NCBI GenBank assembly: GCA_046351675.1 | Contig: JAXLYB010000002.1 | Location: 128,001-192,000 of the forward strand | DNA from: Myxococcaceae bacterium | GTDB lineage: Bacteria; Myxococcota; Myxococcia; Myxococcales; Myxococcaceae | Length of the DNA: 64,000 bases | Reading direction: 5' to 3' | Shown here: positions 10,332-38,038 of the stretch, one piece after another | Position numbering within the stretch: the stretch's first letter is position 1 | Layout of the letters: each line of letters starts with the position of its first letter | The notes under the pieces: generated by a model | Databases searched by the model: none | What the model was told of the DNA's origin: nothing | Seen by the model: the letters and a program-made list of their open reading frames with translations, nothing else | Translations under genes and position numbers: made by a program

Positions 10332-10346
10332 GGGTTGAGGGCTTTT

Positions 10347-13974: not shown

Positions 13975-13982
13975 CTGTTCGG

Positions 13983-14033
13983 CCCCTCACCCCGGCCCTC
14001 TCCCCGCATCCGCAGGGAGAGGGAGGCTCAGCT
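13983..14033. repeat. REP-like hairpin in a convergent gap
   Basis: ggcccctcaccccggccctctccccgcatccgcagggagagggaggctcag, with stem CCCTCTCCC/GGGAGAGGG. Confidence 0.5.
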
Positions 14034-22928: not shown

Positions 22929-24119
22929 TCAGCTCTTCTTCGCCTTGAGGAACTGGTCGAGGCGCGCGAACGCCTCGCCGAGCACCTGTTCCGACGGGAG
23001 GAAGACGACGCGGAAGTGCTGCGTGCCGGCCTTCTGGCCGAAGCCCTCGCCGTGCACGAAGAGCACGCCCGTCTCGCGCACCAGCTGCAGCACGAATTGC
23101 TCGTCGCCGCCCGGCCACGGCGTCTCGAGCGAGGGCAGCGCGTAGAAGGCGCCCTTCGGCTCGACCACCGACACGCCCGGCATCGCGCGGAGCGCCTTCA
23201 CCATCAGGTCGCGGCGCGAGCGGAGCTTCTTCATCATCGCCGGCACGTGGTCCTGCGGGCCCTCGAGCGCGGGCTTGATGGCGTACTGGAACGGGCCCGG
23301 GCCGCAGAGGCGCGCGTCGGCCAGCCGCTGCACGGCGGTGACGACGTCGGGCATCAGCTTCGGGGTGTTGAAGACCAGCCAGCCCACGCGCCAGCCGGGC
23401 GCGAGGTACGCCTTCGAGAGTCCGTTGAAGGTGATGAGCGGCACGTCGTTGGCGAGCGTCGCGGTGGCCACGTGCGCGTCGTCGAAGAGCAGCTTGTCGT
23501 AGATCTCATCGCTCAACACGACGAGCGAGTGCTTGCGCGCGATGTCGAGCACCGCCTCGAGCTGCTGCTTCGTCGCGATGGCGCCGGTCGGGTTGTTGGG
23601 GTTGCAGACCAGGATGGCCTTGGTCTTCGGCGTCACCATCTTCGCGATGGCGTCGGTGTCGATGGCCCAGCCCTTCGACTCGTCGAGCGGGTAGCTCAAC
23701 ACCTTGGCGCGCAGGCGGGCGGCGATGGCGTTGTAGAGCGGGTAGCCGGGCGAGGGCAGCAGCACCTCGTCGCCCTCTTCGAGCAGCGAGGTGAGCGCGA
23801 GGTCGAGCGCCTCGCTGACGCCGGAGGTGACGAACACGTCTTCGGGGCGCACCGCGGGCTTCTGGGCGGCGGCGATGGACGCGCGCGCTTCCTTCAAGCC
23901 GGCCGAGGGCACGTACTGGTTGCAGTTGTCGCGCAGCGCCTTGTTGACCACCTCGACCAGGTGCGGCGGCGTCTGGAAGTCGAACTTGAGCGGGTCGCCG
24001 ATGTTGCAGCTCAGAATCTTCATGCCCGTCGCCTCGAGGCGCGCGGCCTCGGCGGCGATGTTGCGAATGGCGTACTTCACGTTCTTGATGTGGCTGGCGG
24101 GCTGGACACCGGTGGTCAT
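22929..24119 (-). CDS. Class I/II pyridoxal-phosphate aminotransferase (AlaA/AspC-like)
   Basis: Fold-type I order with PLP lysine in NGLSKAY, CNPNNPTG, and the conserved R near the C-terminus. Confidence 0.85.
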   Translation of the reverse strand: MTTGVQPASHIKNVKYAIRNIAAEAARLEATGMKILSCNIGDPLKFDFQTPPHLVEVVNKALRDNCNQYVPSAGLKEARASIAAAQKPAVRPEDVFVTSGVSEALDLALTSLLEEGDEVLLPSPGYPLYNAIAARLRAKVLSYPLDESKGWAIDTDAIAKMVTPKTKAILVCNPNNPTGAIATKQQLEAVLDIARKHSLVVLSDEIYDKLLFDDAHVATATLANDVPLITFNGLSKAYLAPGWRVGWLVFNTPKLMPDVVTAVQRLADARLCGPGPFQYAIKPALEGPQDHVPAMMKKLRSRRDLMVKALRAMPGVSVVEPKGAFYALPSLETPWPGGDEQFVLQLVRETGVLFVHGEGFGQKAGTQHFRVVFLPSEQVLGEAFARLDQFLKAKKS

Positions 24120-24242
24120 GGCGAGGCGCCTTATCGCTGATCACCCGGCGTCGGAAGTGACAGCACAGGTGGGCACGCCGCTGTGCGTCACAGGGAGCGA
24201 TGCCCCGGTCGGGTCCCGAGCGGCTACAACGTCAGCCGTCGC

Positions 24243-24821
24243 ATGACCGAGCGCAAACGCTGGCCCCGCCGCCTCTCGAACGTCATCGGCTTCGACGACG
24301 CCCCGCACGAGAAGGGGAGCGCCGGGCGGGTCGGCCTCATTGGCTGCGTGTGCTCCGGGCCGCGGCTCGACATCGTGGTGCGCGATTCCATCGAGAAAGA
24401 CGGCACCGACGTCACCGACGTGATGACGCGCGTGGTGAAAGACAAGCAACTGGTGCACGTGCGCGGCGTGTTGCTGCAGGGCATCACCTTCGGCGGGTTC
24501 AACGTGGTCGACATCCACCGGTTGTCGAAGTCGCTCGAGCTGCCGGTGCTCGTGGTGACGCGCAAGAAGCCGCGGCTGGGCCTGGTGTTCGACGCGCTCA
24601 AGCGGCTGAGCGACTGGGAGCCCAAGCAGGCGTTGATGGAAGCGGCCGGCGAGCCCGAGTCGTGCGGCGAGGTGTGGGTGCAGCGCGCGGGGCTGACCGC
24701 GGCCGAGGCGCTCGACATGCTCACGCGCACCACGCAGCACGGCATCATTCCCGAGCCGCTGCGGCTGGCGCACATCATCGCGGGCGGCACCACCACCGGG
24801 AAATCGCGCGGCCGCACGTGA
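24243..24821 (+). CDS. DUF99/UPF0215-family protein (predicted nuclease-like fold)
   Basis: MTERKRWPRRLSNVIGFDDAPH...GCVCSG...VRGVLLQGITFGGFNVVD matches the conserved DUF99 block order. This family is mostly archaeal. Assignment is from memory. Confidence 0.45.
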   Translation: MTERKRWPRRLSNVIGFDDAPHEKGSAGRVGLIGCVCSGPRLDIVVRDSIEKDGTDVTDVMTRVVKDKQLVHVRGVLLQGITFGGFNVVDIHRLSKSLELPVLVVTRKKPRLGLVFDALKRLSDWEPKQALMEAAGEPESCGEVWVQRAGLTAAEALDMLTRTTQHGIIPEPLRLAHIIAGGTTTGKSRGRT

Positions 24822-25543
24822 GCGCCCCTCGTCAGCGTGGCGAGCTGGTGCTCGGGCACAAGGCGTACCTCAAGATTCCGCACCTCCCCGGGTCGCGCAC
24901 CGGCTCGAAGGACCGCTTCATGCCGCGTGAGCAGGCGCGGTGGCTGACGCACGCGTGCAAGAGCAAGCACGTGGTGGTGGTGCAGGAAAAGCTCGACGGC
25001 TCGTGCGTGGCGGTGACGAAGAAGGCGGGCGACATCATCGCGCTCGGCCGCGAGGGCTACCGCGTGTCGGAATCACAGAACCCGGGGCGGCTGATGTTCG
25101 GCCGCTGGGTCGAGACGCAGCGCGCGCGCTTCGACTCACTCCTGCGCGAGGGGGAATGGGTGGTGGGCGAGTGGCTCGCGCTCGCGCACTCCACCCGGTA
25201 CGCGCTGAAGCACGAGGCCTTCGTGTTGTTCGACCTGTGCGAGCTGCGCGAGGGGGCGATTCACGCGTTCTCGACCGAGGTGACCGACGCGCGCGTCGCG
25301 GGTGGGTTCGCGCGGCCGCACGTGGTGCACCGCGGGGACGCCATCAGCGTCGAGGCGGTCGACGCGGCGCTCGGGGCGCATGGGTTTCATGGCGCGCTCG
25401 ACCGCGTGGAAGGCGCGGTGTGGCGGCTCGAGAAGGGTGACGGCGTGGTGCTGCGCGGGAAGTTCGTGCGGCCGGGGAAGACCGACGGCGCGTTGTTGCC
25501 TGAGAATTCGGGGCAGCCCGCGGTGTGGAACTGGCGGGACTGA
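24818..25543 (+). CDS. Small ATP-dependent ligase-type nucleotidyltransferase (RNA-ligase-like), KxDG motif
   Basis: GTG start overlaps the DUF99 stop (GTGA). Motif I VVVQEKLDGSCVAV (lysine-adenylation KxDG). Downstream motifs compatible with Rnl2-like adenylyltransferase domain (EGEWVVGEW, HEAFVLFDL, LRGKFVRPGK). Confidence 0.5.
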   Translation: MSAPRQRGELVLGHKAYLKIPHLPGSRTGSKDRFMPREQARWLTHACKSKHVVVVQEKLDGSCVAVTKKAGDIIALGREGYRVSESQNPGRLMFGRWVETQRARFDSLLREGEWVVGEWLALAHSTRYALKHEAFVLFDLCELREGAIHAFSTEVTDARVAGGFARPHVVHRGDAISVEAVDAALGAHGFHGALDRVEGAVWRLEKGDGVVLRGKFVRPGKTDGALLPENSGQPAVWNWRD

Positions 25544-25544
25544 A

Positions 25545-25649
25545 GCCCCTCACCGCAGCCCTCTCCCCGCTGCGCAGGGAGAGGGAGTCCGCGAGTGACG
25601 ACAAGTCTCCCTCTCCCTGCACAGCGGGGAGAGGGTCGGGGTGAGGGGC
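25545..25649. repeat. 105-bp nested palindrome formed by two inverted REP-like units
   Basis: gcccctcaccgcagccctctccccgctgcgcagggagaggga ... tccctctccctgcacagcggggagagggtcggggtgaggggc. Each half is itself a hairpin. Confidence 0.6.
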
Positions 25650-25652
25650 CGA

Positions 25653-26039
25653 CTATCTCTTCTTCACGCCATCGGGCTGCCCCGCAAACAACACCGCCGT
25701 CGGCTGCCCGCGCAGATACGCCGTCACAGCGACCGCCTGCCCACGCTCGAGGCTCTCGACGAACGCATCATGATCAGCCTCGATGACCTTCTTCGCGGGC
25801 GTGCGCGACCCAAACCGGTCATGCAGGTCCTCCCCCGTCAGCACCCAGATGCGCCCGAGCATCTGGTGATCCGACAGCTCGTGAACGGTGAGAATCCCCG
25901 GAGACCCGGTGCGCGAGGCCTGCTTCTGCGCCTCCCCGAGCGAGACATCACCCGCCGCGAGGTGCTGCGCGTCGATCAACGTCTGCTCCATCGAACGGTT
26001 CCACTTCACCCACAGTTGCCAGGCGGACATGCGCCGCAT
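25653..26039 (-). CDS. Hypothetical small protein
   Basis: GC3 above 80% over most of the ORF but it drops in the last ~90 bp. No motif recognised. Divergent from the tetR gene. Confidence 0.35.
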   Translation of the reverse strand: MRRMSAWQLWVKWNRSMEQTLIDAQHLAAGDVSLGEAQKQASRTGSPGILTVHELSDHQMLGRIWVLTGEDLHDRFGSRTPAKKVIEADHDAFVESLERGQAVAVTAYLRGQPTAVLFAGQPDGVKKR

Positions 26040-26092
26040 TGTGCGGCGGAACCCGCGGTGAAACCACTTCGACTTGCGCGACCCTCTTTAGC

Positions 26093-26106
26093 TGAGTATC
26101 TACTCA
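26093..26106. promoter_or_regulatory. Perfect 14-bp palindrome TGAGTATCTACTCA, candidate TetR operator, 7 bp upstream of the tetR ATG
   Basis: Lies in one of the few low-GC patches. Overlaps the position expected for the tetR promoter. Confidence 0.4.
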
Positions 26107-26112
26107 CTCGTC

Positions 26113-26688
26113 ATGGCCCGCCCGCTCGACGAGAACCGCCGCACGCTCATCCTCTCCGCGGCGACGAAGGTCTTCGCCGAGCACGGCCTCTCGGCCCCGA
26201 CGGCGCTCATCTCGAAGACGGCGAAGATCTCCGAGGGCTCGTTCTTCACGTACTTCAAGACCAAGGACGACCTGATCGCCGCGCTGTACGTGCAGATTCG
26301 CCGCGAGGTGGCCGCCGCCATCAACGACGGCTTTCCCGTGCGGGGCACCATCGAGCAGCGCCTCGAGCACGTCTTCACGCGCTTCGTCGGCTACGGGCTG
26401 CAACAGCCGCTCTCACGGCGCGCGCTGGCGCACCTCAACCTCGCGAAGGCGGTGACCGCGCGGCTGCGCACCGAGACGCAGTTGCTCTACGCCGAGGTCG
26501 ATCGCATCCAGGCTGACGCCATCGCACAGAAGCGGCTCCACCTGCCGCCGGTGTTGCCTGGCCCCACCATCGCGGCGCTGGGCGACATGACGCGCGAGCT
26601 CATCGAAGCCCACCCCGCGCAGGCGAAGACGCTGATGGCGGCGGGGTTCCAGATGCTGTGGGCGGCGCTCAACAGCAAGCCGGACTGA
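26113..26688 (+). CDS. TetR/AcrR-family transcriptional regulator
   Basis: HTH LSAPTALISKTAKISEGSFFTYFKTKDDL at the N-terminus, helical C-terminal ligand domain. Confidence 0.85.
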   Translation: MARPLDENRRTLILSAATKVFAEHGLSAPTALISKTAKISEGSFFTYFKTKDDLIAALYVQIRREVAAAINDGFPVRGTIEQRLEHVFTRFVGYGLQQPLSRRALAHLNLAKAVTARLRTETQLLYAEVDRIQADAIAQKRLHLPPVLPGPTIAALGDMTRELIEAHPAQAKTLMAAGFQMLWAALNSKPD

Positions 26689-26695
26689 GGTTGTT

Positions 26696-26715
26696 GGCTG
26701 AGTAATGACTCACTC
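26696..26715. promoter_or_regulatory. Second operator-like motif TGAGTAATGACTCACTCA upstream of the reductase gene
   Basis: Matches the 26093 palindrome at 15 of 18 positions and sits 20 bp upstream of the next ATG. Confidence 0.35.
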
Positions 26716-26734
26716 ATTGTCAAAGGAGCCGGGC

Positions 26735-27748
26735 ATGAGCACGGTGCTGGTCACGGGCGGTTCAGGGTTCATCGGAGGCCACGTGGTGCTCGCCGCCCTC
26801 GCGGCCGGGCACACGGTCCGCACGACGGTGCGCTCGCTGAAGAAGGAAGCCACCGTTCGCGCCACCTTGAAGCGCGCGGGCGCCGACGACTCGCGGCTGA
26901 CCTTTTACGAGCTCGACCTCGAGCGCGACGCGGGCTGGGCCGAGGCCGTCGCCGGGTGCGACTTCGTGCTGCACGTCGCCTCTCCGATGCCGCAGGGCGA
27001 GCCGAAGAACCCCGACGACGTGCTGGTGCCCGCGAGAGAAGGCGTGCTGCGTGCCCTGCGCTTCTCGCGCGACGCCGGCGTGAAGCGCGTGGTGCTCACC
27101 TCGAGCTGTGGCGCCGTCTATTACGGCCACCCGCCGCAAGAGGCCGCCTTCGACGAGACGAGCTGGACCAACACCGACGGCGACATGAGCACCTACGTAC
27201 GCAGCAAGGCGTTGGCCGAGCGCGCGGCGTGGGACTTCATGCAGCGCGAAGGCGGCGCGCTCGAGCTGAGCGTCATCAACCCGGCAGGCGTGTTCGGTCC
27301 GGCGCTGAGCACCGAGGCGCTCGGCTCGCTCGGCCTCGTGCAGCGTCTGCTGCGAGGGATGCCGGGCGCGCCGCGGCTGTACTTCTCGGTGGTCGACGTG
27401 CGCGACGTGGCCGACCTGCACCTGCGCGCGATGACGTCTGCGGCTGCGAAGGGCGAGCGCTTCATCGCGACGACCGAGGGCGTGCTGTCGATGCTCGACG
27501 TGGCGAACGTGCTGCGCGCGCGGCTCGGCGCGGCGGCGGCGAAGGCGCCCCGGCGTGCGCTGCCAAGCTGGCTGGTGCGCGTCCTCGCCCGGGTCAACCC
27601 GCAACTGCGACAGCTGTTGCCCCTGCTCGACGTGAAGCGCCAGGCGTCCAGCGCGAAGGCGAAGCGCGTGCTGGGCTGGTCGCCGCGCGCGCCGGAAGAC
27701 GTCATCGCCGCGACGGGTGAGAGCCTGCTGCAGCTCGGCGCCACGTGA
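26735..27748 (+). CDS. NAD(P)-dependent epimerase/dehydratase-family reductase (aldehyde/cinnamoyl-CoA-reductase-like SDR)
   Basis: MSTVLVTGGSGFIGGHVV Rossmann motif. Extended-SDR layout with catalytic Y...K (YVRSK). Confidence 0.8.
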   Translation: MSTVLVTGGSGFIGGHVVLAALAAGHTVRTTVRSLKKEATVRATLKRAGADDSRLTFYELDLERDAGWAEAVAGCDFVLHVASPMPQGEPKNPDDVLVPAREGVLRALRFSRDAGVKRVVLTSSCGAVYYGHPPQEAAFDETSWTNTDGDMSTYVRSKALAERAAWDFMQREGGALELSVINPAGVFGPALSTEALGSLGLVQRLLRGMPGAPRLYFSVVDVRDVADLHLRAMTSAAAKGERFIATTEGVLSMLDVANVLRARLGAAAAKAPRRALPSWLVRVLARVNPQLRQLLPLLDVKRQASSAKAKRVLGWSPRAPEDVIAATGESLLQLGAT

Positions 27749-27775
27749 TGATCAGAACCGCTAACGTCCGCTGGC

Positions 27776-29239
27776 GTGACGCCGCTCGAGAAGGCCGCCG
27801 CTGAAGGCAAGCTCGCGCTCGTCCGCGAGTTGCTCGAGTCGAACCGCTCGTCGTTGAGCTCGGCCCTCGGCACCGCGGTGCGCATGCGCCACCTCGACGT
27901 CGCGCGCCTTCTCCTCGAGCACGGCGCCGACGCGAACGGGCGCGACACCGAATGGTCGCCGCTGATGCACGCGGTGAAGTCGGGGCTCGACGCCGTTCAG
28001 CTGTTGCGCGAGTTCGGCGCTGACGTTCGCGCACGCGCGAAGGACGGAAAAGACGCGCTCCACGTCTATCTGGTGGTGACGCACTCGATTCGCGACGAGG
28101 TGACGGCCGACCTGGGCGTGGTGCAGTACCTGCTCGACGCGGGGCTCGCCGTGCGGAGCGGCACCCACTCGCACCTGATGGCGGCGTGCTTCACCAACAA
28201 CGCGTCCATCGTGGAGTTGCTCCTCGCGCGCGGTGCGGACCCCAACGAGCAGGGAATCCTCGGCGCGGTGGCGCTTCGCTCGCACGGACGAGAGATGTTG
28301 GCGGCGCTGGTGAGGGCCGGCATCGCGCCCAACGCGCATGAGGTCGACCGGTTCCGCGACACCACGGTGCTCACCGACGTCTGTGCGCGCGGAGATGTCG
28401 AGACCGCCACCACCCTGATCGACCGCGGCGCCGACCCGAACTTTCGCGGCACGAGCTCGCCGTTGGCCCGCGCGGTCGAGAGCGGCAACCAGGTGCTGGT
28501 CGACCTGCTGCTCGAGCGCGGAGCCCGCCCACTCGTCGCGCCGCTCCCCGAAGAGACCACCCGCGCGCTCGACCTCGCCGAAGCCGCCGCGCGCGCCAGA
28601 CCCGGCGACGCGAGCGCACGACTCACGTGGGCCAAGACGCTTCACGCGAGTGGCTTTCGCGCCGCTGCTGCGTGCGAGGCCGACGCGCTCCGCCGCACCG
28701 GGGTCGACGTTCCGCTCGAGCTCTCGTCGTTCGACGCGCACGGCACCCGGTGGACCTTCGTCGACCTGCCCCGCCTCGAGGGCCTCGCCCCGCGCACCAC
28801 CGACGAGCGCTATCCACGCGCGATGGTGAGCGAAGGCCGGCGCACCGTGCCGCTCCTCCTCACGTCGAGCCCGCCCTGCACCACCTGCGACGAGAAGGGC
28901 GAAGAGGTCTGCACCGACTGCGACGGCACCGGCACCCACTTCGAGCCCACCGACTTCGGCGACTTTCGCGAAGAGTCCTGCCCGACGCGGCAGCCGTGCA
29001 GCAACTGCTTCGGGCTCAAGTTCGTCGTGGTGGCGCGGCGCTTCAGCAAGGGCGCGTGCGTTCATTCCGAGCTCGACGAAGAGCTGACGGTGGGCCTCAA
29101 CGTCTTCCGCCGCTGCCGGGTGTGCGGTCTGGCGTCGATCTACGGCGAGACGCACTGGCGCTACCGCCGCGACGATTACTTCGCGTGCGCCGTCTGCGGC
29201 CGCTTCCTCTGCACCTGTGCCGCGAACACCGTCGGGTAG
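27776..29239 (+). CDS. Ankyrin-repeat protein with C-terminal DnaJ-type CxxCxGxG zinc-finger/zinc-ribbon cluster
   Basis: Seven or more ANK repeats (G.T.LH.A...G....V..LL..GAD.N). C-terminus CTTCDEKGEEVCTDCDGTG...CSNCFG...CRVCG...CAVCG. GTG start 27 bp after the reductase stop. Confidence 0.7.
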   Translation: MTPLEKAAAEGKLALVRELLESNRSSLSSALGTAVRMRHLDVARLLLEHGADANGRDTEWSPLMHAVKSGLDAVQLLREFGADVRARAKDGKDALHVYLVVTHSIRDEVTADLGVVQYLLDAGLAVRSGTHSHLMAACFTNNASIVELLLARGADPNEQGILGAVALRSHGREMLAALVRAGIAPNAHEVDRFRDTTVLTDVCARGDVETATTLIDRGADPNFRGTSSPLARAVESGNQVLVDLLLERGARPLVAPLPEETTRALDLAEAAARARPGDASARLTWAKTLHASGFRAAAACEADALRRTGVDVPLELSSFDAHGTRWTFVDLPRLEGLAPRTTDERYPRAMVSEGRRTVPLLLTSSPPCTTCDEKGEEVCTDCDGTGTHFEPTDFGDFREESCPTRQPCSNCFGLKFVVVARRFSKGACVHSELDEELTVGLNVFRRCRVCGLASIYGETHWRYRRDDYFACAVCGRFLCTCAANTVG

Positions 29240-29577
29240 TCACGCTCAGCCGATTCGTCAGCGCTGTATCGAACTGCGCACGAGCCCTACTGGGCAGAGA
29301 AAATGCTCTGGGAGAACAACGTCTCTACCCAGTGCGTGAACTTCGCCCGCAGTCGAGGGGCTGCTCGCGTTGAGCAGTGCCGAAGCCCTTCACACCACGC
29401 GTCGCCCTGAGGCCAGCCGCGCGGGAGAACAACTTCTCTACCCAGCGGTCGACCGTGGCGCCCGGGCCACGGTCTGATGCCGTGCCGAGCAGCGCCGCCG
29501 CATCGCGCGCCATCTTCACGCGGCCTTTCAGTCTCCGTCGCCGCCGCGCGTCGGCGCCCGTCATAAGGTCTCGACCC

Positions 29578-30723
29578 ATGCCGGCAGCGCTCGTCTTCGT
29601 CACCCCCAATTCGTGGAACGCCGACGAGGCACAGCGCCTGCTCGCGGGGCTCTCGGTGGAGTTCTCCCGCGTCGCGCTCCCGAAGGGCGACTCGCCACGC
29701 CTCGAAGACGTGGCGCGGTTTCGCGCGCGCGCCGCGTGGGAGCAGCTCCGCCGGCCGTGCTTCGTCGAGAACACGCAGCTGCAGCTCGAGGGCGAGGCGC
29801 CGTGGACGGGCGCGGCCTTCAAGCAGCTTCACCGTGAACTCGGCGACGCCGGCTTCTGCGCGAAGTTCGGCGGGCGGCGCGGCGAGACCCGGGTGGTGGT
29901 GGCGCTCGCGACGAGCGCTGATCAGCTCACGCTCTTCGAGGGCCGCGGCGAGGGCACGGTCGCGTCGTCACCGCGCGGCGAAGGCGGCTACGGGTGGGAC
30001 CGGGTGTGGATTTCCGACGGCTACTCGCGCACCCAGGCCGAGCTCGGCCCCTCGAGCTTCCTCATCAACATGCGGCAGCGGCCGTACGTCGACCTCGCGG
30101 CGCACGTGCGCGGCGACGGCACGCCCGGCTACTTCGAGGCGCACGTCACGGTGAAGCCGTGCGACATGACGAAGTTCGCGGCGACCTGCGAGCGGCTGGG
30201 CGTGAAGTGCCTGCACATCGTGATGCCCGAGCGCACCGCGCAGCACGAGCAGCCGATGACCGGCAGCTACCACCTCGGCACGCTCTCGCAGGTGCGGGAG
30301 CAGGTGCTGACGCTCTCTCGTGCGCTGGTGCACGACGGCTTCGAGGTGACGCGCATGAAGCTCGAGGCGACCGGCAAGGCGTTCGGCGTGCCCGAGACCG
30401 AGGCCGAGGGCCGCGCACTGCCGAAGGACGTCTACTTCGAGCACCACGCGACGGTGACGCTCCCCGAGGGCTTCGACGAGCGTGCACTGCAGACGCGCTG
30501 CGCCGCGCTGGGCGGGTACGTGTCGAAGAACCTGCGCAAGCCCGGCCGCGAGCGCTTCGTCACCGTGCGCAGCTACCAGGTGCACCGCGCGGTGGCCGAC
30601 GCGCGCTTCGAGGCGCTGGTGGGCGAGCTGCTCGCGCTCGGCGTGCCCATCAAGAACCGCGCGCGGGAGTTCGCGGTGTTCGACTCCGCGCCGCAGATCG
30701 ACCTCGGCTGGTTCGAGTCATGA
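29578..30723 (+). CDS. Fusion protein: N-terminal Ham1/ITPase-like NTP pyrophosphatase domain + C-terminal 2H-phosphoesterase-like domain
   Basis: N-terminus LVFVTPNSWNADEAQRLL...GEGGYGWDRVWISDGYSRTQAEL parallels RdgB (VVLATGN.GK / GFGYDPIF / T.AEL). The C-terminus carries two H-x-T-x motifs about 90 residues apart (EAHVTVKP and EHHATVTLP), as in LigT-type 2H enzymes. Confidence 0.5.
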   Translation: MPAALVFVTPNSWNADEAQRLLAGLSVEFSRVALPKGDSPRLEDVARFRARAAWEQLRRPCFVENTQLQLEGEAPWTGAAFKQLHRELGDAGFCAKFGGRRGETRVVVALATSADQLTLFEGRGEGTVASSPRGEGGYGWDRVWISDGYSRTQAELGPSSFLINMRQRPYVDLAAHVRGDGTPGYFEAHVTVKPCDMTKFAATCERLGVKCLHIVMPERTAQHEQPMTGSYHLGTLSQVREQVLTLSRALVHDGFEVTRMKLEATGKAFGVPETEAEGRALPKDVYFEHHATVTLPEGFDERALQTRCAALGGYVSKNLRKPGRERFVTVRSYQVHRAVADARFEALVGELLALGVPIKNRAREFAVFDSAPQIDLGWFES

Positions 30724-31439
30724 GCGGGTCGTCTCTCTCGCTCGACGAGGTGCTCGACTGGCTGCGCGCGTCGGCGCTCGGCCCGAAGCTCGTGCTGCGT
30801 GGCTCGTTGCTCAGCGAGCAGTGGCTGCCGGGGCGCAAGGCGAACGACGTCGACGTGCTGGTCGACGGCGAGTGGAACCCCGCCACGCTGACGCCCGTGG
30901 TGCGGGAGCTCTTCGCGCCGATGCGCGACGTGGCGTGCGTGGTGACGACCATCTGGGCCGAGACCGAGTTCCCGGGAGTGCGCGCGTCGCTCGGGCGCGG
31001 CGGCGTCGCGGTGCAGGTCGACTTCGGGTGGGGCGAGCAGCTCGCGGCCGAGCCGGTACCGCTCGTGGTGCGCGGTCATTCGTGGCGCACCGTGGTGCCG
31101 GAGGTGATGTTCGGCTGGAAGACGCACTCGCTCGTCGAGCACGGTCCGCGCGGCAAGTGGCACGCCAAGACGGTGGCCGACCTCGCGCTCTTTCACCGGC
31201 ACGTGAAGCTCGACCCCGCGCTCGCGAAGGAAGCCATCGTGCGCTCGTTCGCGACGCAGCGGCTGTCGCTCTCGCTCCTCGACGCGCTCTTCGATGACCC
31301 GACGTGGGGCATGAGCCGCGGCTCGCGGGGGAAGTGGAAGAGCTACCGCAAGAAGGCGCCGTGGGTGACCTTCACGCTCGAGGAAGCGCTGACGGACGTG
31401 AGAGCGGCGCTCGGGCCGTTGTTGCGGCCGGGGCGGTGA
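30720..31439 (+). CDS. Minimal pol-beta-superfamily nucleotidyltransferase (AbiEii/MNT-like)
   Basis: ATGA overlap with the upstream gene. LVLRGSLLSEQWLPGRKANDVDVLVDG fits hG[GS]x9-13DxD. A third acidic residue is candidate in VQVDFGW. About 240 aa. Confidence 0.5.
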   Translation: MSGSSLSLDEVLDWLRASALGPKLVLRGSLLSEQWLPGRKANDVDVLVDGEWNPATLTPVVRELFAPMRDVACVVTTIWAETEFPGVRASLGRGGVAVQVDFGWGEQLAAEPVPLVVRGHSWRTVVPEVMFGWKTHSLVEHGPRGKWHAKTVADLALFHRHVKLDPALAKEAIVRSFATQRLSLSLLDALFDDPTWGMSRGSRGKWKSYRKKAPWVTFTLEEALTDVRAALGPLLRPGR

Positions 31440-31452
31440 CGCACGTTCCCCG

Positions 31453-32004
31453 ATGTGCACGCGCGCGCGGTGGGGGCTCTGCTCGTGGTCGGCTGCATCT
31501 TCGTGCGTGCCAGACGCCACGCCGGTCGCGCCACCCGTCACCTGCAGCGGACCTGATCAGGTCTCCTGCGGCCAGACGTGCGCCATCCTCCAGACCGACG
31601 ACGAGAACGCGCACGCCTTGCCCGCGCCGCAGTTGACCCCCACGCTCTTCGCGTCGACGCACACGCCGTGGTCGCAGACGGCGAGCGGGACGCAGGTGGT
31701 GATGCCGCAGTCGTGCGGGAAGCACGTCGACGCGGCGCACTTCTCGCCGCTGCCGCACGCGCCACAGTTGGCCGAGTCGGTGCGGGTGTCGACGCACGTG
31801 CCTCCGTCACCGCCGCACGTGCTGCTCGCGCCCGAGCACACCACGCCGACGCACGGCTTCTCAGTGCACGTGTTCGGGAAGCAGACCGAGCTCGGGTCGC
31901 ACACCTCTCCGCTGCAGCTGCGGTCGAAGCAGGCGCCGTTCGCGGAGGCAACTGCGGCGTCAGCCCGTACAACTGGGGCGTGGGCACGAACTTCACGTGG
32001 CTGA
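31453..32004 (+). CDS. Hypothetical Pro/Thr/His-rich putative lipoprotein (strand assignment uncertain)
   Basis: Codon-position GC is 65%/54%/~100% for this frame, against 54%/65%/~100% for the antisense Cys-rich ORF 31557-31904. A possible lipobox reads AASSC. Confidence 0.3.
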   Translation: MCTRARWGLCSWSAASSCVPDATPVAPPVTCSGPDQVSCGQTCAILQTDDENAHALPAPQLTPTLFASTHTPWSQTASGTQVVMPQSCGKHVDAAHFSPLPHAPQLAESVRVSTHVPPSPPHVLLAPEHTTPTHGFSVHVFGKQTELGSHTSPLQLRSKQAPFAEATAASARTTGAWARTSRG

Positions 32005-32032
32005 TCTCGGCGGCGACCGAGCCGTGAGCTGA

Positions 32033-34696
32033 TCAGCGTTTGCGCCGCGAGAGCACCGGGTCGATGGTCGAGCGCTGCCCGACCACCTGCACCGCGAGCG
32101 TGTCACTGCACGCGGCCCACGCCTCGTCGACCCACTTCAGCGGCACCGAGGCCAGCGTGCGCGGCAGCCCCGCCGCGGCCTGGAGCGTCGACCCGCGCGC
32201 CATCTCGCGGGCCAGCGAGCGCGCGAGCACCCGCGACGTCAGCAGGCTCCCGAGGTTGCGCTTGGCGAGGCGCCAACGGGCGAGGTCGACCACCTGGTCT
32301 TCCCACAGCGCGCCGTCGAGCGAGTCGAGCCGCGTGAAGAAGTCAGCGAGCCCCTGCTGCTTGTTGCGCGCGTCGAGGTTGGTGGTCAGCAGCAGCAGGT
32401 TGTCTTCGAGCGCGAAGTCGGTGACCTCCGCGCTCACCCCGTAGGTCAGCCCGCGGGCGCGGCGCAGGTCGTCTTCGAAGACCATCGCCAGCGCTTCGCC
32501 CAGCAACAGCGAACCACCGCGCTGCTCGAGCGTGGTGGCCGGCGGCAACCGGCACGCCACACGCACCGAGGTCTGCGCGGCGTCGGGGCGGTCGACCACC
32601 AGGGGCTTCGCCGGTCGCGTCGGCACCGCGCCGAGCTCGCGCAGCTTCCCCGTTCGGCCCGACCCGGCGCCCCAGGAGCTGAAGAGCTCGTTCACCAGCG
32701 CCAGCGTCGGCTCGACGTCGACGTCGCCGTCGATGAACAGCACCGCGCCCTTCGCGCGGAAGGCGTCGCCCACGAAGGCATCGAAGTCGCCGAGGCTGAT
32801 GTCACGCAGGTCGTCGAGCGTCGCCTCGACGTGCGCGCTGCCCGGCGGGAGCACCTGCAGCAGGAGGTCGCGCAGGCCATCGCTGGCGTCGAGCGGCTGG
32901 TCGGCCCTGCGCCGGAGCCGCTCGACGACGCGGTCGGCGGCCCACACGCGATTCACCCCGACGCGGGGCGGCAGGTTGTGGGCGAACACGTCGAGCACCA
33001 GCGGGAGCAGCCGCGCCTCGGCGGTGAGGGTGACGGTGGTCACGTCGGGCTGCACCACCACGTCGGGCCGCGGCAGCGTGGCCGGGTGTTCCGGCGGGAA
33101 GTTGTCCCACCACTCGAGCATGACGCCCGCGAGCTCGCTGACCTCGCGCGTGGTGTGGCGCGCGCCGAGCGGCATCGCGAGCGTGACCGAGGCGACCGGC
33201 ACCGGGAGTCGGCGCGAGACCACCACGCGCAGCCCGTTGGGCAGCGTGGCCTCGTGCACGTCGGGCAGCGACGCTGGCAGCGCGGTGGCCGCCATGCGCG
33301 CGGGTTCGACCACCACGTTCTTGCGCTCGGCCTGCGGCGCCGGGCCGCGCTCGCCCCGGTCGCTCGAGGCGACGACGCGGGGCACGAGGAGCAGCTCCGC
33401 CGCGCCTCGCCACACGAGCGCTTCGCGGCCGAGCCGGGTGAGCTCAGCCCAGCCGGCGTCGGTGAGGCGCAAGGGCCGTTCGCTCTTCCAGTAGGTGGAG
33501 CTCGCGCGCGACTCGGCCTCGGCGAGCAGGTCCTGGCGGGCGAGGAGGTCACCGAAGGCGCGGTCGTGTTCGTCGGAGCGCTCGACGCGCCAGTCGAGCG
33601 GCTTGGCGCGCGCGCGGGCGCTGAGCTGGTCGAGGTCGGCGCCCGGCGCGACAGCGACCGTGAGGGTGATCATCGGCGCGAAGAGGCCCGGGAGGAACTG
33701 ACCGCCGACGCCGAGCACTGCCGCGTCTCCGGCGAGGTTGCGGGCGAGCGCGTCGGCCATCGCGTCGGCGACGAGCGGCATCGCGCTGTACGCGGCCCCG
33801 GCTGGACCCGGCACCGCCCACACGAAGACGAGCTCGCGTTGCCGCACGTCGACCTCGAGCACCGGGCGATCGGCGAACGGCCTGGGCAGACCCGGCTTCT
33901 CGATGAAGCGCTCGAAGGGTGGCGTCGGCGTGCCCGGGGAGACCCAGCTCGCGGGGAACGCCTTGCGCGCCAGCCGTTCGGCGTCGGTGGGCTCGACGTC
34001 GCCGACCAGCACGAGGGTGGTGGTCTCCGGGCGGTAGTAGGTCTCGACGAAGTGCTCGAGGTCGGCGCGGGTGATGGCGGCGAGGCTCTTCGGGTCGCCG
34101 GAGATGGGGCGCGCCGCGCGTGAGACGGGGCCGAACGCGAGCTCTCCGAGCGTGGCGAGCACCGCACCACCGCCGTGGGGGTACCGCTCGAGGTACTCGT
34201 TGCTCACCACCGCGCGCTCGATCTCGAGGGTCGCCGCGTCGACGCCCTGCAGCGGGTGGAGCACCATCGAGGTGATGAGCGGCAGCACCTCGCCGAGGCG
34301 ATCGGCCGCGACGACTCCGCTGTAGACCGTGGAGTCGAGCGAGGTCGCACCGTTCGCGGTCGAGCCACCGTTCGAGGCGACGCCCGCGAAGTCGAGCTCG
34401 TCCCACGCTGACAGGCGGTTCACGGGCTTCGAGCGGAAGGCGAGGTGCTCGACGAAGTGCGCGGTGCCCGACTTGCCGGCCGGGTCATCGCTCGCGCCCG
34501 CGCCCACCAGGAGTGCGACGCCGACGCGGCCAGAGCCGGCGTGACGCTCGATGACGACGCGCAGCCCCGAGGGCCAGGTGACGACGCGGTTGGGCACCGC
34601 GTTGGAACGCGGCGGGAGCGCGGTGTGAAACGGAAGGCAGGCCGAGCCGACGCACAGCAGCGAGAGGGCGAGAGTCGCGCGACGCATCGCGCGCAC
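32033..34696 (-). CDS. Tandem-domain M16 (pitrilysin/insulinase) family zinc peptidase, secreted
   Basis: Signal MRAMRRATLALSLLCVGSA. Inverted zinc motif HFVEHLAF (HxxEH). Second M16 unit in the C-terminal half. 17 bp downstream of the preceding gene. Confidence 0.8.
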   Translation of the reverse strand: MRAMRRATLALSLLCVGSACLPFHTALPPRSNAVPNRVVTWPSGLRVVIERHAGSGRVGVALLVGAGASDDPAGKSGTAHFVEHLAFRSKPVNRLSAWDELDFAGVASNGGSTANGATSLDSTVYSGVVAADRLGEVLPLITSMVLHPLQGVDAATLEIERAVVSNEYLERYPHGGGAVLATLGELAFGPVSRAARPISGDPKSLAAITRADLEHFVETYYRPETTTLVLVGDVEPTDAERLARKAFPASWVSPGTPTPPFERFIEKPGLPRPFADRPVLEVDVRQRELVFVWAVPGPAGAAYSAMPLVADAMADALARNLAGDAAVLGVGGQFLPGLFAPMITLTVAVAPGADLDQLSARARAKPLDWRVERSDEHDRAFGDLLARQDLLAEAESRASSTYWKSERPLRLTDAGWAELTRLGREALVWRGAAELLLVPRVVASSDRGERGPAPQAERKNVVVEPARMAATALPASLPDVHEATLPNGLRVVVSRRLPVPVASVTLAMPLGARHTTREVSELAGVMLEWWDNFPPEHPATLPRPDVVVQPDVTTVTLTAEARLLPLVLDVFAHNLPPRVGVNRVWAADRVVERLRRRADQPLDASDGLRDLLLQVLPPGSAHVEATLDDLRDISLGDFDAFVGDAFRAKGAVLFIDGDVDVEPTLALVNELFSSWGAGSGRTGKLRELGAVPTRPAKPLVVDRPDAAQTSVRVACRLPPATTLEQRGGSLLLGEALAMVFEDDLRRARGLTYGVSAEVTDFALEDNLLLLTTNLDARNKQQGLADFFTRLDSLDGALWEDQVVDLARWRLAKRNLGSLLTSRVLARSLAREMARGSTLQAAAGLPRTLASVPLKWVDEAWAACSDTLAVQVVGQRSTIDPVLSRRKR

Positions 34697-37329: not shown

Positions 37330-37501
37330 GGGCGTGGGGCCTCCGAGGAGAGTCTTCGCAGCGGGAACGCGCACGACTTTCCCCCGCGAAACGAAGCGAC
37401 TTTACAGGGTCGCACGCGCGGCCTGGATTGATCAGGGAAGACTGACGCTTCCGCGTGACACCGACGTGTCGGTGCAGGTGCGCAACAGCGTGTCTTCTTC
37501 T

Positions 37502-38029
37502 TCAGAACCGCGCGAGCAGCGCACCGGGGCGCGGGCCGAGGTCGACGCCCGGCGGCGCAGGCGGCGGAGGCACGCTGCGGTCGTCGTCTCGCGACTTCGC
37601 CACGCGGAGCGCCTGCTCGACCTTGCGCAGCGCGGTGGCGTTCTCGGCGCGCTCGGGGCCCTTCATCAAGTAGAGCACCAGGCCGACGACGAACACGGCG
37701 GCGCTGACTCCGATGAAGACGCCGCCCACCACCATCGAGCTGAAGAGGAAGAAGCCGAGGCCGACCGAGAAGCCGACCGCGCCGACCACCATCACGGTCA
37801 CCGGCAACACGGCCGAGGGGCGGCTGTCGAGAATGCGCTGACGTTCCGCGGTGAGCTGCGCGACCGTCATCTGCTCGAGGGGCAGGAGCGCGGGCGCGGG
37901 CGGCTGCACGTTCGGAGCGGCGACCTCGGCCTCGGCCACCAACAGCCCGGGACGTGGAGCCTGGTCGGCGAGGAGTCCTCCGGAAGCCAGCAGCGCAAGG
38001 TTCACCAACACGAGCGTCATGTGGTGCAT
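37502..38029 (-). CDS. Small membrane protein
   Basis: [18 protein letters not shown] then a second helix [40 protein letters not shown]. Divergent from the cyclophilin with a 9-bp gap. Confidence 0.4.
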
Positions 38030-38038
38030 TCTGCGCCC

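What the first reader, a model, noticed from the sequence alone, without database searches (positions are those of the whole stretch)
29240..31439. Translationally coupled Ham1(ITPase)-like/2H-phosphoesterase fusion plus a minimal pol-beta nucleotidyltransferase, next to an ankyrin/DnaJ-zinc-finger protein: candidate nucleotide-signal writer/eraser or nucleotidyltransferase toxin-antidote module
Seen in sequence: gene 29578-30723 joins two nucleotide-processing modules in one polypeptide. The N-terminal half follows the Ham1/RdgB order (hhhhTxN..., GxGYGWD, TxAEL). The C-terminal half carries two His-x-Thr-x motifs (AHVTV, HHATV) about 90 residues apart, which is the catalytic signature of the 2H phosphoesterase superfamily (LigT, CNPase, AKAP18, and viral 2',5'-PDEs that erase nucleotide second messengers). 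Its stop overlaps (ATGA, 30720-30723) the start of a ~240-aa pol-beta-fold nucleotidyltransferase with an intact GS-x13-DxD motif, so the two genes are co-translated. The Ham1-like domain has lost the canonical phosphate-binding Lys (PNSWNADE instead of GNxxK), which suggests a changed specificity. Upstream (27776-29239) lies an ankyrin-repeat protein ending in CxxCxGxG zinc-finger knuckles. Established knowledge: minimal nucleotidyltransferases act as toxins (AbiEii, MenT tRNA nucleotidylation) or as signal synthases, and 2H and Ham1 enzymes act as nucleotide erasers or house-cleaners in conflict systems. Inference: a fused double eraser hard-wired to a nucleotidyltransferase, with a repeat-protein partner, is an arrangement I do not recognise as a described toxin-antitoxin, CBASS, Thoeris or Pycsar layout. 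It could be a self-contained nucleotide-modification/reversal pair.
Basis: partly seen in the sequence, partly recalled or inferred. Interest (0 to 1): 0.8.

Follow-up and report, generated by a model that had tools for sequence, protein, structure and literature searches.

The report
Pseudo-ITPase fusion, AbiEii nucleotidyltransferase, RNA ligase operon
The two overlapping genes are real, but they are one half of a conserved myxobacterial four-gene operon (uracil/inosine-type endonuclease, RNA ligase, an inactive-looking ITPase fused to an uncharacterised double-histidine domain, and an AbiEii-family nucleotidyltransferase). The operon looks more like a nucleic-acid end-repair cassette than a signalling writer/eraser pair, the claimed 2H fold is not supported, and the ankyrin gene is not part of it.

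Summary
The N-terminal half is a genuine Ham1/ITPase domain. It lacks the catalytic Asp (N, S or R across the family), as does the dITP sensor KomB.

The nucleotidyltransferase belongs to the AbiEii/DUF1814 family. PADLOC would call the pair "AbiE".

The ankyrin/Zn protein, TetR and epimerase are a lineage-specific insertion. They split a conserved Myxococcota operon: Endo_dU(DUF99)–RNA ligase–fusion–NTase. The same modules are also fused in other combinations elsewhere (ligase–C, ligase–Ham1–C, C–NTase, NTase–Ham1–C, tRNaseZ-like–C, MazG–C in phages). The flanking genes are ordinary housekeeping genes, not a defence island.

- **Best reading (~0.4):** an RNA/DNA end-processing and repair cassette.
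- **Main rival (~0.3):** an AbiE/MenAT-type toxin–antitoxin with an enzyme-like, nucleotide-sensing partner.

I rate it a new variant of known kinds, of moderate-to-good interest.

The parts
24183..24821 (+). Endo_dU (DUF99), an EndoV-like endonuclease. First gene of the conserved operon.
   Evidence: Pfam PF01949, E 1e-49. Present in 16/33 related genome loci, directly before the ligase. The family cleaves 3' of dU without metal ions (PMC11585767).
24818..25543 (+). ATP-dependent RNA ligase (PF09414, KxDG motif EKLDGS). The probable GTG start overlaps the Endo_dU stop (GTGA).
   Evidence: Pfam RNA_ligase, E 7.7e-14 on 24902-25543. GTGA overlap read. Gene calls in relatives are 239-256 aa and overlap Endo_dU by 4 nt. 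Adjacent upstream of the fusion in 25/34 genome loci. Fused to the fusion protein in P0058.
25545..25649 (.). 43-nt inverted repeat (nested hairpins) directly after the ligase stop. It marks the start of the lineage-specific insertion.
   Evidence: Rfam gives only sub-threshold hairpin (miRNA-model) hits there.
26113..29239 (+). Lineage-specific insertion that splits the operon: TetR (26113-26688), NAD-epimerase (26705-27748) and the ankyrin + Cys-rich protein (27776-29239). Not a component of the system.
   Evidence: Pfam. tblastn of these three proteins finds them in no related locus other than this organism's own contigs. A different insertion occupies the same spot in L089.
29578..30084 (+). 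Ham1/ITPase-like domain of the fusion protein (residues 1-169). The catalytic Asp is replaced (FVENT) and the SHR motif reads NMR.
   Evidence: Pfam PF01725, E 1.5e-13. Best solved relative is KomB, E 1.1e-11 as a single sequence and 4.5e-27 as a profile. Alignment to human ITPA places E64-N65 at E71-D72 and N164-M165-R166 at S176-H177-R178. Position 65 is N, S or R in all 57 homologues.
30085..30723 (+). C-terminal domain of the fusion (residues 170-381): two tandem beta-alpha-beta-beta-alpha-beta units, each opening with an ExH motif (FEAHVTV, FEHHATV). The family is uncharacterised.
30720..31439 (+). AbiEii/DUF1814-family pol-beta nucleotidyltransferase (239 aa), translationally coupled to the fusion (ATGA).
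   Evidence: PADLOC AbiEii PDLC02319, E 7.1e-51. Homologues at 68% and 54% identity pass the Pfam PF08843 cut-off. The profile hits PDB 9hlo 'AbiGII' at E 2.5e-13 over the full length. Conserved G28-S29, D43, D45, D101, K134, K150, D154.

Best explanation
The finding is the downstream half of a conserved, vertically inherited Myxococcota operon: Endo_dU(DUF99) - RNA ligase - [Ham1-like + ExHx2 domain] - AbiEii-family nucleotidyltransferase. In this genome an inserted TetR/epimerase/ankyrin block has split the operon.

I read it as a nucleic-acid (most likely RNA/tRNA, possibly DNA) end-processing and repair cassette. The proposed steps are all inferred:
1. The EndoV-like nuclease, or an external toxin, breaks the strand at or near a deaminated base.
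2. The catalytically degenerate ITPase-like domain binds a purine nucleotide. This could be a terminal or free inosine/xanthosine-type nucleotide or an NTP. It positions or gates the rigidly attached ExHx2 domain.
3. The ExHx2 domain acts on the broken end as a phosphoesterase-like healing or trimming enzyme.
4. The AbiEii-type nucleotidyltransferase adds nucleotides back to the 3' end.
5. The RNA ligase seals the break.

Shown here: domain identities, motif conservation, operon conservation, translational coupling and the repeated domain fusions.

Inferred: every catalytic step, the substrate, and the order of events.
For: Operon conservation:
- NTase lies within 300 nt downstream in 33/37 genome loci.
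- The ligase is adjacent upstream in 25/34 loci.
- Endo_dU is present in 16/33 loci.
- 4-nt overlaps link ligase to fusion and fusion to NTase in relatives.

Rosetta-stone fusions of the same modules:
- RNA_ligase-Ham1-C (P0058)
- RNA_ligase-C (P0218)
- C-AbiEii (5 representatives, including Micromonospora WP_334625881.1)
- AbiEii-Ham1-C-X (P0318)
- metallo-beta-lactamase/tRNase-Z-like-C (P0249)
- MazG-like-C in phages (phrog_1247)

Association with ligases:
- The ligase accompanies 10/11 Ham1-type loci.
- A Deinococcus plasmid carries ligase | C-domain | AbiEii.
- In phages the stand-alone C-domain lies near RtcB (Arash), near Rnl1 and a CCA-adding enzyme (phiM12), and near a DUF2828/TROVE-like gene (LAh_8).

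C-domain properties:
- Invariant polar residues alternate on strands (E-H-T, R-K-E, E-H, S-N, T-R, E..D), as in an active site.
- The full-length fusion models as one rigid unit, pTM 0.90.

Genomic setting:
- Flanks are housekeeping genes.
- They are syntenic within Myxococcaceae/Archangiaceae (aminotransferase upstream, PPIase + AAA_33 downstream).
- They show no enrichment of defence or mobile-element genes.
- In three MAGs the NTase is separated from the fusion by 2.5-5 kb of opposite-strand genes yet remains intact, which is awkward for a toxin-antitoxin pair.
Against: - Every characterised DUF1814 enzyme (AbiEii, MenT1/3/4) is a growth-arresting toxin acting on tRNA (PMC3985639, PMC7450476, PMC10435456, 10.64898/2026.01.19.700257).
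- The evolutionary core of the family is just C-domain + NTase, a bicistron with the small partner first, as in AbiE. Only 1/12 stand-alone-type loci carries a ligase.
- No kinase or known phosphatase is present.
- The C-domain has no solved or characterised relative, so its phosphoesterase role is a guess.
- The chemistry of the ends left by Endo_dU is not established (the enzyme is metal-independent, PMC11585767).
- Endo_dU is missing from about half of the loci.
- The gene-neighbourhood logic in phages is weak, because nucleic-acid metabolism genes cluster there anyway.
Confidence: 0.4

Rival explanations
1. An AbiE/MenAT-type toxin-antitoxin (type IV/VII) or abortive-infection module. The AbiEii-family NTase is a toxin that nucleotidylates tRNA 3' ends. 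The fusion protein is its antitoxin: the ExHx2 domain neutralises the toxin, either by binding and inducing auto-phosphorylation of the GS-motif serine or by reversing the tRNA modification. The pseudo-ITPase domain senses a non-canonical purine nucleotide (as KomB senses dITP) and releases the toxin on infection or stress. The ligase and Endo_dU would be accessory damage-control genes.
For: - PADLOC HMMs labelled AbiEi (PDLC02277, E 2.7e-45, full length) and AbiEii (PDLC02319, E 7.1e-51) match the two proteins.
- NTase motifs I, II and III are intact, S29 is at least 90% conserved, and the profile hits the solved AbiGII structure.
- The arrangement is a bicistron with a 4-nt overlap and the partner gene first.
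- The core pair is widespread and also found on plasmids of Deinococcus, Streptomyces and Kitasatospora.
- Partners of DUF1814 toxins are known to be diverse, and antitoxin-induced auto-phosphorylation is a general control mechanism (PMC11375011; 10.64898/2026.01.19.700257).
- The Ham1 half shares with KomB the loss of the catalytic Asp and the SHR-to-xMR change. KomB is its best solved match (10.1101/2024.12.20.629578).
- Some relatives sit beside or enclose sensor-like repeat proteins: TIGR02996+LRR between C-domain and NTase, an AfsR-like NB-ARC/TPR protein, LRV/HEAT.
- Phage copies of the C-domain could be antitoxin mimics.
Against: - There is no DNA-binding domain.
- The partner looks like an enzyme rather than a labile antitoxin.
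- C-domain-NTase, ligase-C and NTase-Ham1-C fusions are hard to fit to a TA logic.
- The ligase is conserved and translationally coupled.
- The locus is chromosomal and syntenic, and there is no defence-island context.
- The pair is split by opposite-strand genes in L001-L003.
- Motif IV is KTxxD instead of +DxxD in the myxobacterial clade.
- Defensive HAM1s are reported to carry His at the catalytic position and to be tied to SIR2/KomC. Neither holds here.
Confidence: 0.3
2. The NTase synthesises a nucleotide second messenger or modified nucleotide, the fused Ham1 + '2H' protein is a double eraser of that signal, and the ankyrin/Zn protein is a partner.
For: - The NTase and an NTP-pyrophosphatase-family domain are genetically coupled.
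- Kongming shows that HAM1-like proteins can work in nucleotide signalling (10.1101/2024.12.20.629578).
Against: - The 2H fold is not supported.
- The Ham1 catalytic Asp is absent in all homologues.
- The NTase belongs to the tRNA-modifying DUF1814 family, not to the CD-NTase/cyclase families.
- No effector that would read a signal is conserved in the loci.
- The ankyrin protein is absent from all related loci.
Confidence: 0.05
3. An ordinary house-cleaning ITPase that happens to carry an extra domain and lies beside an unrelated nucleotidyltransferase.
For: Public annotation calls the protein 'non-canonical purine NTP pyrophosphatase'. The flanks are housekeeping genes.
Against: - The catalytic Asp and the metal-binding Glu are not conserved.
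- The domain combination and the adjacency to the NTase and ligase are conserved across Myxococcia and Polyangia down to about 40% identity.
- The C-domain pairs with AbiEii NTases without any Ham1 domain in other phyla.
Confidence: 0.05

Closest known systems
AbiE (AbiEi/AbiEii) and MenAT toxin-antitoxin systems (DUF1814 nucleotidyltransferase toxins)
   Same: - The downstream gene is a DUF1814/AbiEii-family pol-beta NTase with motifs hG[GS], DxD and the motif-III Lys.
- The partner gene lies upstream with a 4-nt overlap.
- PADLOC's AbiE HMMs match both proteins.
   Different: - The partner has no winged-HTH/COG5340 or COG4861 architecture. It is a pseudo-ITPase plus a tandem-plait ExHx2 domain.
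- An RNA ligase and an EndoV-like nuclease are conserved in the operon and are sometimes fused to the partner.
- NTase motif IV is KTxxD.
- The locus is chromosomal and syntenic, not in defence islands.
- Toxicity is untested.
KomB, the HAM1-like dITP sensor of the Kongming defence system
   Same: - Closest solved structure to the N-terminal half.
- Both have lost the catalytic Asp and the His of the SHR motif, while keeping the nucleotide-binding residues (T, N, K82-equivalent, D141, R166).
   Different: - Asn (or Ser/Arg) replaces the Asp instead of His.
- No SIR2 (KomC) or adenosine deaminase (KomA) partner is present.
- The domain is fused to a different domain and coupled to an NTase and a ligase.
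- Nucleotide binding is not tested here.
RNA repair/healing-and-sealing systems (T4 Pnkp+Rnl1, fungal/plant Trl1 ligase-kinase-CPDase, RlaP NTase-ligase operons, CCA-adding enzyme with HD phosphoesterase domain)
   Same: - Combines an RNA ligase, a pol-beta NTase and an enzyme-like accessory domain.
- The modules shuffle and fuse.
- Phage copies lie near RtcB, Rnl1 and a CCA-adding enzyme.
- The ligase-X-C architecture parallels Trl1's ligase-kinase-CPDase.
   Different: - No P-loop kinase, HD, 2H or metallophosphatase healing domain is present.
- The NTase is AbiEii-type rather than RlaP (PF10127) or class II CCA.
- The presumed healing domain has an uncharacterised fold and no demonstrated activity.
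2H phosphoesterases (LigT/ThpR, CNPase, AKAP18, viral 2',5'-PDEs)
   Same: - Two His-containing strand motifs in a duplicated, pseudo-symmetric alpha+beta domain of about 200 residues.
- Association with RNA ligases.
   Different: - The fold search finds no 2H protein.
- The unit is a classical beta-alpha-beta-beta-alpha-beta plait.
- The conserved motif is ExH. The Thr/Ser of the second HxT/S is not conserved (mostly Lys).
- No Pfam 2H family is hit even at E up to 10.
EndoV/Endo_dU alternative excision repair and LigD-type polymerase-phosphoesterase-ligase end repair
   Same: - A deaminated-base endonuclease, a pol-beta-superfamily transferase, a candidate end-processing domain and an ATP-dependent ligase are encoded together.
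- A Ham1-type domain links thematically to inosine/xanthosine nucleotides.
   Different: - The components belong to different families from those of LigD (primase-polymerase, PE domain, DNA ligase).
- The ligase is of the RNA-ligase family.
- Endo_dU is absent from about half of the loci.
- There is no experimental link.

Membership tests
Ham1/ITPase (PF01725) | Sequence and fold membership above the curated threshold | tested here: met
   PF01725 at 51.5 bits against a 22.5 cut-off, E 1.5e-13. The profile hits KomB, human ITPA and Mj0226 at E 1e-22 to 5e-27.
Ham1/ITPase (PF01725) | Catalytic Asp (human ITPA D72) and metal-binding Glu (E44) needed for pyrophosphohydrolysis | tested here: not met
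   The D72 position is N65 in the window and N, S or R in all 57 homologues. No conserved acidic residue sits at the E44 position. SHR is NMR. Activity was not assayed.
Ham1/ITPase (PF01725) | Nucleotide-binding residues (T14, N16, K19, K89, D152, R178 of ITPA) | tested here: met
   T9, K82, D141 and R166 are invariant and N11 is at least 90% conserved. The K19 equivalent is lost in the window's clade (N14) but is K or R in many relatives.
2H phosphoesterase superfamily | Two HxT/S motifs | tested here: inconclusive
   The first motif H189-x-T191 is invariant. In the second motif H290 is invariant, but the T/S position is Thr only in the window's clade and Lys (or H, A, L, E) elsewhere.
2H phosphoesterase superfamily | LigT-like bilobal fold and profile similarity to a 2H family | tested here: not met
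AbiEii / DUF1814 nucleotidyltransferases | Pol-beta motifs I (hG[GS]) and II (DxD) and a third carboxylate | tested here: met
   R27-G28 (invariant) and S29 (at least 90%). D43 and D45 are invariant. D101 is at least 90% conserved.
AbiEii / DUF1814 nucleotidyltransferases | Family-specific motifs III (K...R) and IV (+DxxD) | tested here: inconclusive
   K134 is invariant. Motif IV reads K150-T-x-x-D154 in the myxobacterial clade and KDxxD in the Deinococcus, Streptomyces and P0190 relatives (motif definition from PMC3985639).
AbiEii / DUF1814 nucleotidyltransferases | Profile membership | tested here: met
   PADLOC AbiEii PDLC02319, E 7.1e-51. The window protein itself gives no Pfam hit, but homologues at 68% and 54% identity score 38 and 34 bits against a 22.5 cut-off for PF08843. 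The profile hits PDB 9hlo AbiGII at E 2.5e-13 over the full length.
AbiE toxin-antitoxin system | Antitoxin of COG5340/COG4861 type (N-terminal winged HTH repressor + CTD) | tested here: not met
   The partner is a Ham1 domain plus a tandem-plait domain, with no HTH by Pfam or NCBIfam or in the structure model. Only PADLOC's association-derived 'AbiEi' HMM matches.
AbiE toxin-antitoxin system | NTase toxic, neutralised by the upstream gene; phage protection | not testable with these tools
   Requires expression and infection experiments.
Kongming (KomABC) | HAM1 with catalytic Asp-to-His, associated with SIR2 KomC (and deaminase KomA) | tested here: not met
   Asn, not His, at that position. 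No SIR2 or deaminase appears among the module genes or among the 25 families listed by the 132-ORF neighbour census.
RNA repair operons (ligase + NTase + end-modifying enzyme) | RNA ligase and nucleotidyltransferase encoded together | tested here: met
   PF09414 ligase in 28/34 genome loci, together with the AbiEii NTase. Fusions with the ligase are seen.
RNA repair operons (ligase + NTase + end-modifying enzyme) | Recognisable end-healing enzyme (kinase, phosphatase or CPDase) | tested here: inconclusive
   No known healing domain is present. The ExHx2 domain is only a candidate.
Defence island residency | Neighbours enriched in defence or mobile-element genes | tested here: not met
   In the census of 132 flanking and internal ORFs, the commonest families are M13 peptidase, MatE, histidine kinase, aminotransferase and TetR. 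Individual loci show nuo genes, FtsX and PPIase.

The most novel reading that the evidence does not exclude
A second kind of base-modified-nucleotide sensing, outside Kongming. A catalytically dead ITPase domain, rigidly fused to a previously unrecognised ExHx2 enzyme domain, would read inosine/xanthosine-type nucleotides (free, or at a broken nucleic-acid end). It would thereby gate an AbiEii-type tRNA nucleotidyltransferase, with an EndoV-like nuclease and an RNA ligase built into the same operon. That would be a deamination-responsive 'damage, sense, rewrite and reseal' system. The ExHx2 domain would be a new phosphoesterase fold shared by bacteria, phages and Klosneuvirinae giant viruses.
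Probability: 0.15. Interest if true: 0.85.

Novelty: new variant of a known kind. Interest (0 to 1): 0.6.

Why it matters
Four points make it worth following up.

1. **A large uncharacterised family.** The finding exposes a protein domain with an active-site-like duplicated ExH signature. It has 813 clusters at 50% identity, occurs in bacteria, phages and giant viruses, and has one eukaryotic transcriptome hit. Evolution has repeatedly welded it to RNA ligases, NTP pyrophosphatases (Ham1, MazG), a tRNase-Z-like nuclease and AbiEii nucleotidyltransferases.

2. **A question about automatic annotation.** Defence-annotation pipelines would call this pair 'AbiE', yet the partner bears no resemblance to AbiEi. 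This casts doubt on part of the automatically annotated AbiE space.

3. **A second pseudo-ITPase context.** It offers a catalytically degenerate HAM1 domain outside Kongming. Testing whether nucleotide sensing by pseudo-ITPases is a general principle becomes feasible.

4. **A candidate repair route.** If the repair reading holds, this would be a previously undescribed route for handling deaminated or broken RNA/DNA ends. It occurs in Myxococcota, including the model strain Sorangium cellulosum So ce56.

Tried and rejected
- **Ankyrin/Zn protein as partner.** tblastn against all fetched loci found it only in this organism's own contigs.
- **Repeat proteins as a general partner.** LRR, TPR/NB-ARC and LRV/HEAT neighbours occur in a few lineages. 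The 132-ORF census shows no general enrichment.
- **Defence-island context.** Not found.
- **Non-coding RNA or tRNA in the operon.** Rfam gave only sub-threshold hairpin hits on the 25545-25649 inverted repeat, and ARAGORN found no tRNA in the window.
- **Promoter and terminator scan of 23900-32100.** Nothing above the shuffled background.
- **Source names for the C-domain.** Only 'hypothetical protein'.
- **Literature.** No held paper mentions Ham1 together with AbiEii/MenT. The 2016 Burroughs & Aravind RNA-repair survey is not in the library, so I could not check whether it lists this operon. The 'novel NTase associating with ligases' described there is RlaP/PF10127, a different family.
- **Scan with the diverse C-domain alignment.** A narrower alignment worked.


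Full report
**What is at the coordinates**

The window is about 70% G+C. Homologue names place it in Myxococcaceae. ORF 29578-30723 (381 aa) and ORF 30720-31439 (239 aa) lie on the + strand. ATG 30720-30722 overlaps the stop TGA 30721-30723.

The two histidines are 101 residues apart, not about 90. Alignment of 57 homologues shows their N-termini at the position of the ATG at 29578, not at the upstream GTG at 29377.

**N-terminal half: a Ham1 domain that has lost its catalytic residues**

Pfam PF01725 matches residues 5-159 at 51.5 bits against a cut-off of 22.5. The best solved relative is KomB, the HAM1-like subunit of the Kongming defence system. Human ITPA follows.

In the HMMER alignment to human ITPA:
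- ITPA E71-D72 aligns with E64-N65.
- ITPA S176-H177-R178 aligns with N164-M165-R166.
- No conserved acidic residue sits at the E44 position.

Across 57 homologues, position 65 is N, S or R and never D. T9, K82, D141 and R166 are invariant, and N11 is at least 90% conserved.

The Kongming preprint (10.1101/2024.12.20.629578) reports that KomB has His at the catalytic Asp position, does not hydrolyse dITP, and acts as the dITP-recognition module. By analogy (inference) this domain is more likely a purine-nucleotide binder than a house-cleaning enzyme. Many relatives keep K or R there.

**C-terminal half: not 2H by fold**

An AF2 model of residues 170-381 is confident, with pLDDT 92.4. It shows two tandem beta-alpha-beta-beta-alpha-beta units.

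- Foldseek against PDB gave only weak tandem-ACT and chlorite-dismutase/HemQ matches at TM about 0.3.
- Pfam finds nothing at E up to 10.
- A PDB profile search hits only the Ham1 half.

The conserved signature is ExH at the first strand of each repeat. E187, H189 and T191 are invariant, as are Y286, E288 and H290. The residue after the second His is Thr only in the window's clade and Lys in most others. Further invariant polar residues alternate along other strands (R-K-E, S-N, T-R, E..D), which looks like an active or ligand-binding site.

The domain is therefore a real, conserved, enzyme-like module. Filing it under 2H fails the fold test.

The full-length fusion models as one rigid body, with pLDDT 93.7 and pTM 0.90.

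**The nucleotidyltransferase**

- PADLOC's AbiEii model PDLC02319 matches at E 7.1e-51.
- Homologues at 68% and 54% identity pass Pfam PF08843.
- A profile of 30 homologues hits the solved 'AbiGII' protein 9hlo at E 2.5e-13 over the full length.
- G28 is invariant, S29 is at least 90% conserved, D43, D45 and K134 are invariant, and D101 is at least 90% conserved.
- Motif IV (+DxxD, defined in PMC3985639) reads KTxxD here and KDxxD in more distant relatives.

It is thus a member of the DUF1814 family. The characterised members of that family (AbiEii and the MenT toxins) are tRNA-modifying toxins controlled by antitoxin-induced auto-phosphorylation (PMC7450476, PMC10435456, PMC11375011, 10.64898/2026.01.19.700257).

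**The real unit is larger, and the ankyrin gene is not in it**

A scan of one genome per species found 38 full-length fusions, all in Myxococcota. They include Sorangium cellulosum So ce56, Polyangiaceae, Labilithrix and Kofleriaceae.

In these loci:

| Feature | Count |
|---|---|
| NTase within 300 nt downstream of the fusion | 33/37 |
| NTase anywhere downstream in the locus | 36/37 |
| PF09414 RNA ligase directly upstream | 25/34 |
| RNA ligase anywhere in the locus | 28/34 |
| Endo_dU/DUF99 gene present | 16/33 |

Gene calls in relatives show 4-nt overlaps between ligase and fusion and between fusion and NTase.

The window holds both missing genes: Endo_dU at 24183-24821 and the ligase at 24818-25543, joined by a GTGA overlap. 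They are separated from the fusion by TetR, an epimerase and the ankyrin/Zn protein. These three occur in no other locus. A relative has a different insertion at the same place. A 43-nt inverted repeat sits right after the ligase stop.

Within Myxococcaceae/Archangiaceae the site is syntenic, with an aminotransferase upstream and PPIase + AAA_33 downstream. A census of 132 flanking ORFs shows ordinary genes and no defence or mobile-element enrichment.

**The C-domain family beyond Myxococcota**

An exhaustive phmmer search found 813 representative clusters, mostly stand-alone proteins of about 200-235 aa.

In 61 metagenome loci:

| Feature | Count |
|---|---|
| AbiEii-type NTase within 300 nt after the C-domain | 31/37 |
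| Ham1-fused C-domain | 18/40 |
| Stand-alone C-domain | 22/40 |
| Ligase present with Ham1-type loci | 10/11 |
| Ligase present with stand-alone-type loci | 1/12 |

Plasmids of Deinococcus (ligase | C-domain | AbiEii), Streptomyces rimosus and Kitasatospora carry the pair.

Multidomain members:
- Ham1-C
- C-AbiEii (for example Micromonospora WP_334625881.1)
- RNA_ligase-C
- RNA_ligase-Ham1-C
- AbiEii-Ham1-C-X
- a metallo-beta-lactamase/tRNase-Z-like-C protein

In phages the domain is the C-terminal part of phrog_1247, 'MazG-like pyrophosphatase'. As a stand-alone gene it lies near RtcB, near Rnl1 with a CCA-adding enzyme, and near a DUF2828 gene.

BFVD models of phage and Klosneuvirinae proteins match the fold at TM about 0.8, and all are unnamed. 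No source names the protein.

**Interpretation**

The evolutionary core is a C-domain + AbiEii NTase pair. The Myxococcota version adds a pseudo-ITPase domain and an RNA ligase, and often an EndoV-like nuclease.

Two readings compete.

*(a) Nucleic-acid end-processing and repair cassette (about 0.4).* This reading explains:
- the conserved, coupled ligase and nuclease;
- the many fusions among ligase, NTP-pyrophosphatase-type domains, a tRNase-Z-like nuclease, the C-domain and the NTase;
- the enzyme-like conservation of the C-domain;
- the phage contexts;
- the stable housekeeping location;
- the survival of the NTase when it is separated from the fusion by opposite-strand genes.

The thematic link is Endo_dU, which cuts 3' of dU (PMC11585767), together with a Ham1-type purine-nucleotide pocket. 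This suggests deaminated bases as the lesion. That step is inference only.

*(b) AbiE/MenAT-like toxin-antitoxin with an unusual, nucleotide-sensing, enzyme-like partner (about 0.3).* This reading explains:
- the family membership of the NTase;
- the bicistronic core;
- the PADLOC models;
- the plasmid copies;
- the KomB-like degeneration of the Ham1 domain;
- the occasional neighbouring sensor-like repeat proteins.

The two readings are not fully exclusive. A partner that reverses or heals the NTase's RNA product would be both an 'antidote' and a repair enzyme.

**Novelty**

The NTase and the Ham1 domain belong to known families, and PADLOC would flag the pair as AbiE. The partner domain is uncharacterised. 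I found no paper in the held library that links Ham1 with AbiEii/MenT or that describes this operon. I could not read the 2016 RNA-repair survey. I therefore class it as a new variant of known kinds, with moderate-to-good interest.

Noticed in passing
window 25545-25649: A 43-nt inverted repeat (91% complementary, arms 19 nt apart, each arm itself a small hairpin CCCTCTCCCCGC/GCAGGGAGAGGG) lies immediately after the RNA ligase stop, at the edge of the TetR/epimerase/ankyrin insertion. It looks REP- or MITE-like. Rfam gives only sub-threshold miRNA-model hits.
   Followed up: partly
window 29310-29332 and 29423-29445: A 23-nt direct repeat GGGAGAACAACNTCTCTACCCAG occurs twice, 113 nt apart, in the 338-nt spacer upstream of the fusion gene (part of a 61-nt, 70%-identical duplication). 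It could be an operator or the remnant of the insertion event.
   Followed up: no
L140 5561-7423, L146 5549-7432 (also L142, L148): In one GC-rich metagenomic subfamily a gene for a protein of about 620 aa (TIGR02996 'repeat-companion' domain plus STM4015/LRR-like region) sits between the stand-alone C-domain and the AbiEii NTase. Its start overlaps the end of the C-domain ORF.
   Followed up: partly
L080 7646-9859 (Streptomyces rimosus pSRIMHP); L079 6397-8444 (Deinococcus sp. QL22 plasmid): Other repeat or sensor-like proteins lie directly downstream of the C-domain/AbiEii pair. In Streptomyces it is an AfsR-like NB-ARC/TPR protein. In Deinococcus it is DUF6915 plus an LRV/HEAT-repeat protein. 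Together with the window's ankyrin gene this hints at variable repeat-protein neighbours, but the 132-ORF census shows no general enrichment.
   Followed up: partly
L001-L003, about 9140-14000: In three Myxococcaceae/Archangiaceae MAGs the NTase is separated from the fusion gene by 2.5-5 kb of opposite-strand genes, including a response regulator and a conserved protein of about 400 aa. The NTase nevertheless remains full-length.
   Followed up: partly
P0221 (201 aa): One stand-alone C-domain representative comes from a transcriptome of the amoeba Stenamoeba stenopodia (EukProt). BFVD shows the same fold in Klosneuvirus, Fadolivirus, Bodo saltans virus and Yasminevirus. The family thus reaches eukaryotic giant viruses and possibly their hosts, unless this is contamination.
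   Followed up: no
window 31453-32004: Downstream of the NTase, a 128-aa gene is called on the + strand in public data (31618-32004, no Pfam hit). It overlaps a Cys-rich 115-aa ORF on the - strand (31557-31904). It is unclear which, if either, is real.
   Followed up: no
window about 37400-38900 (L092 12098-13089); L086 12499-13002; L089 13453-14907: A PPIase gene followed by an AAA_33/AAA_18 kinase-like gene (and a NUDIX gene in L089) is syntenic downstream of the operon in several Myxococcaceae/Archangiaceae. AAA_33 includes polynucleotide-kinase-like enzymes, so a functional link to the operon cannot be excluded. It was not tested.
   Followed up: no
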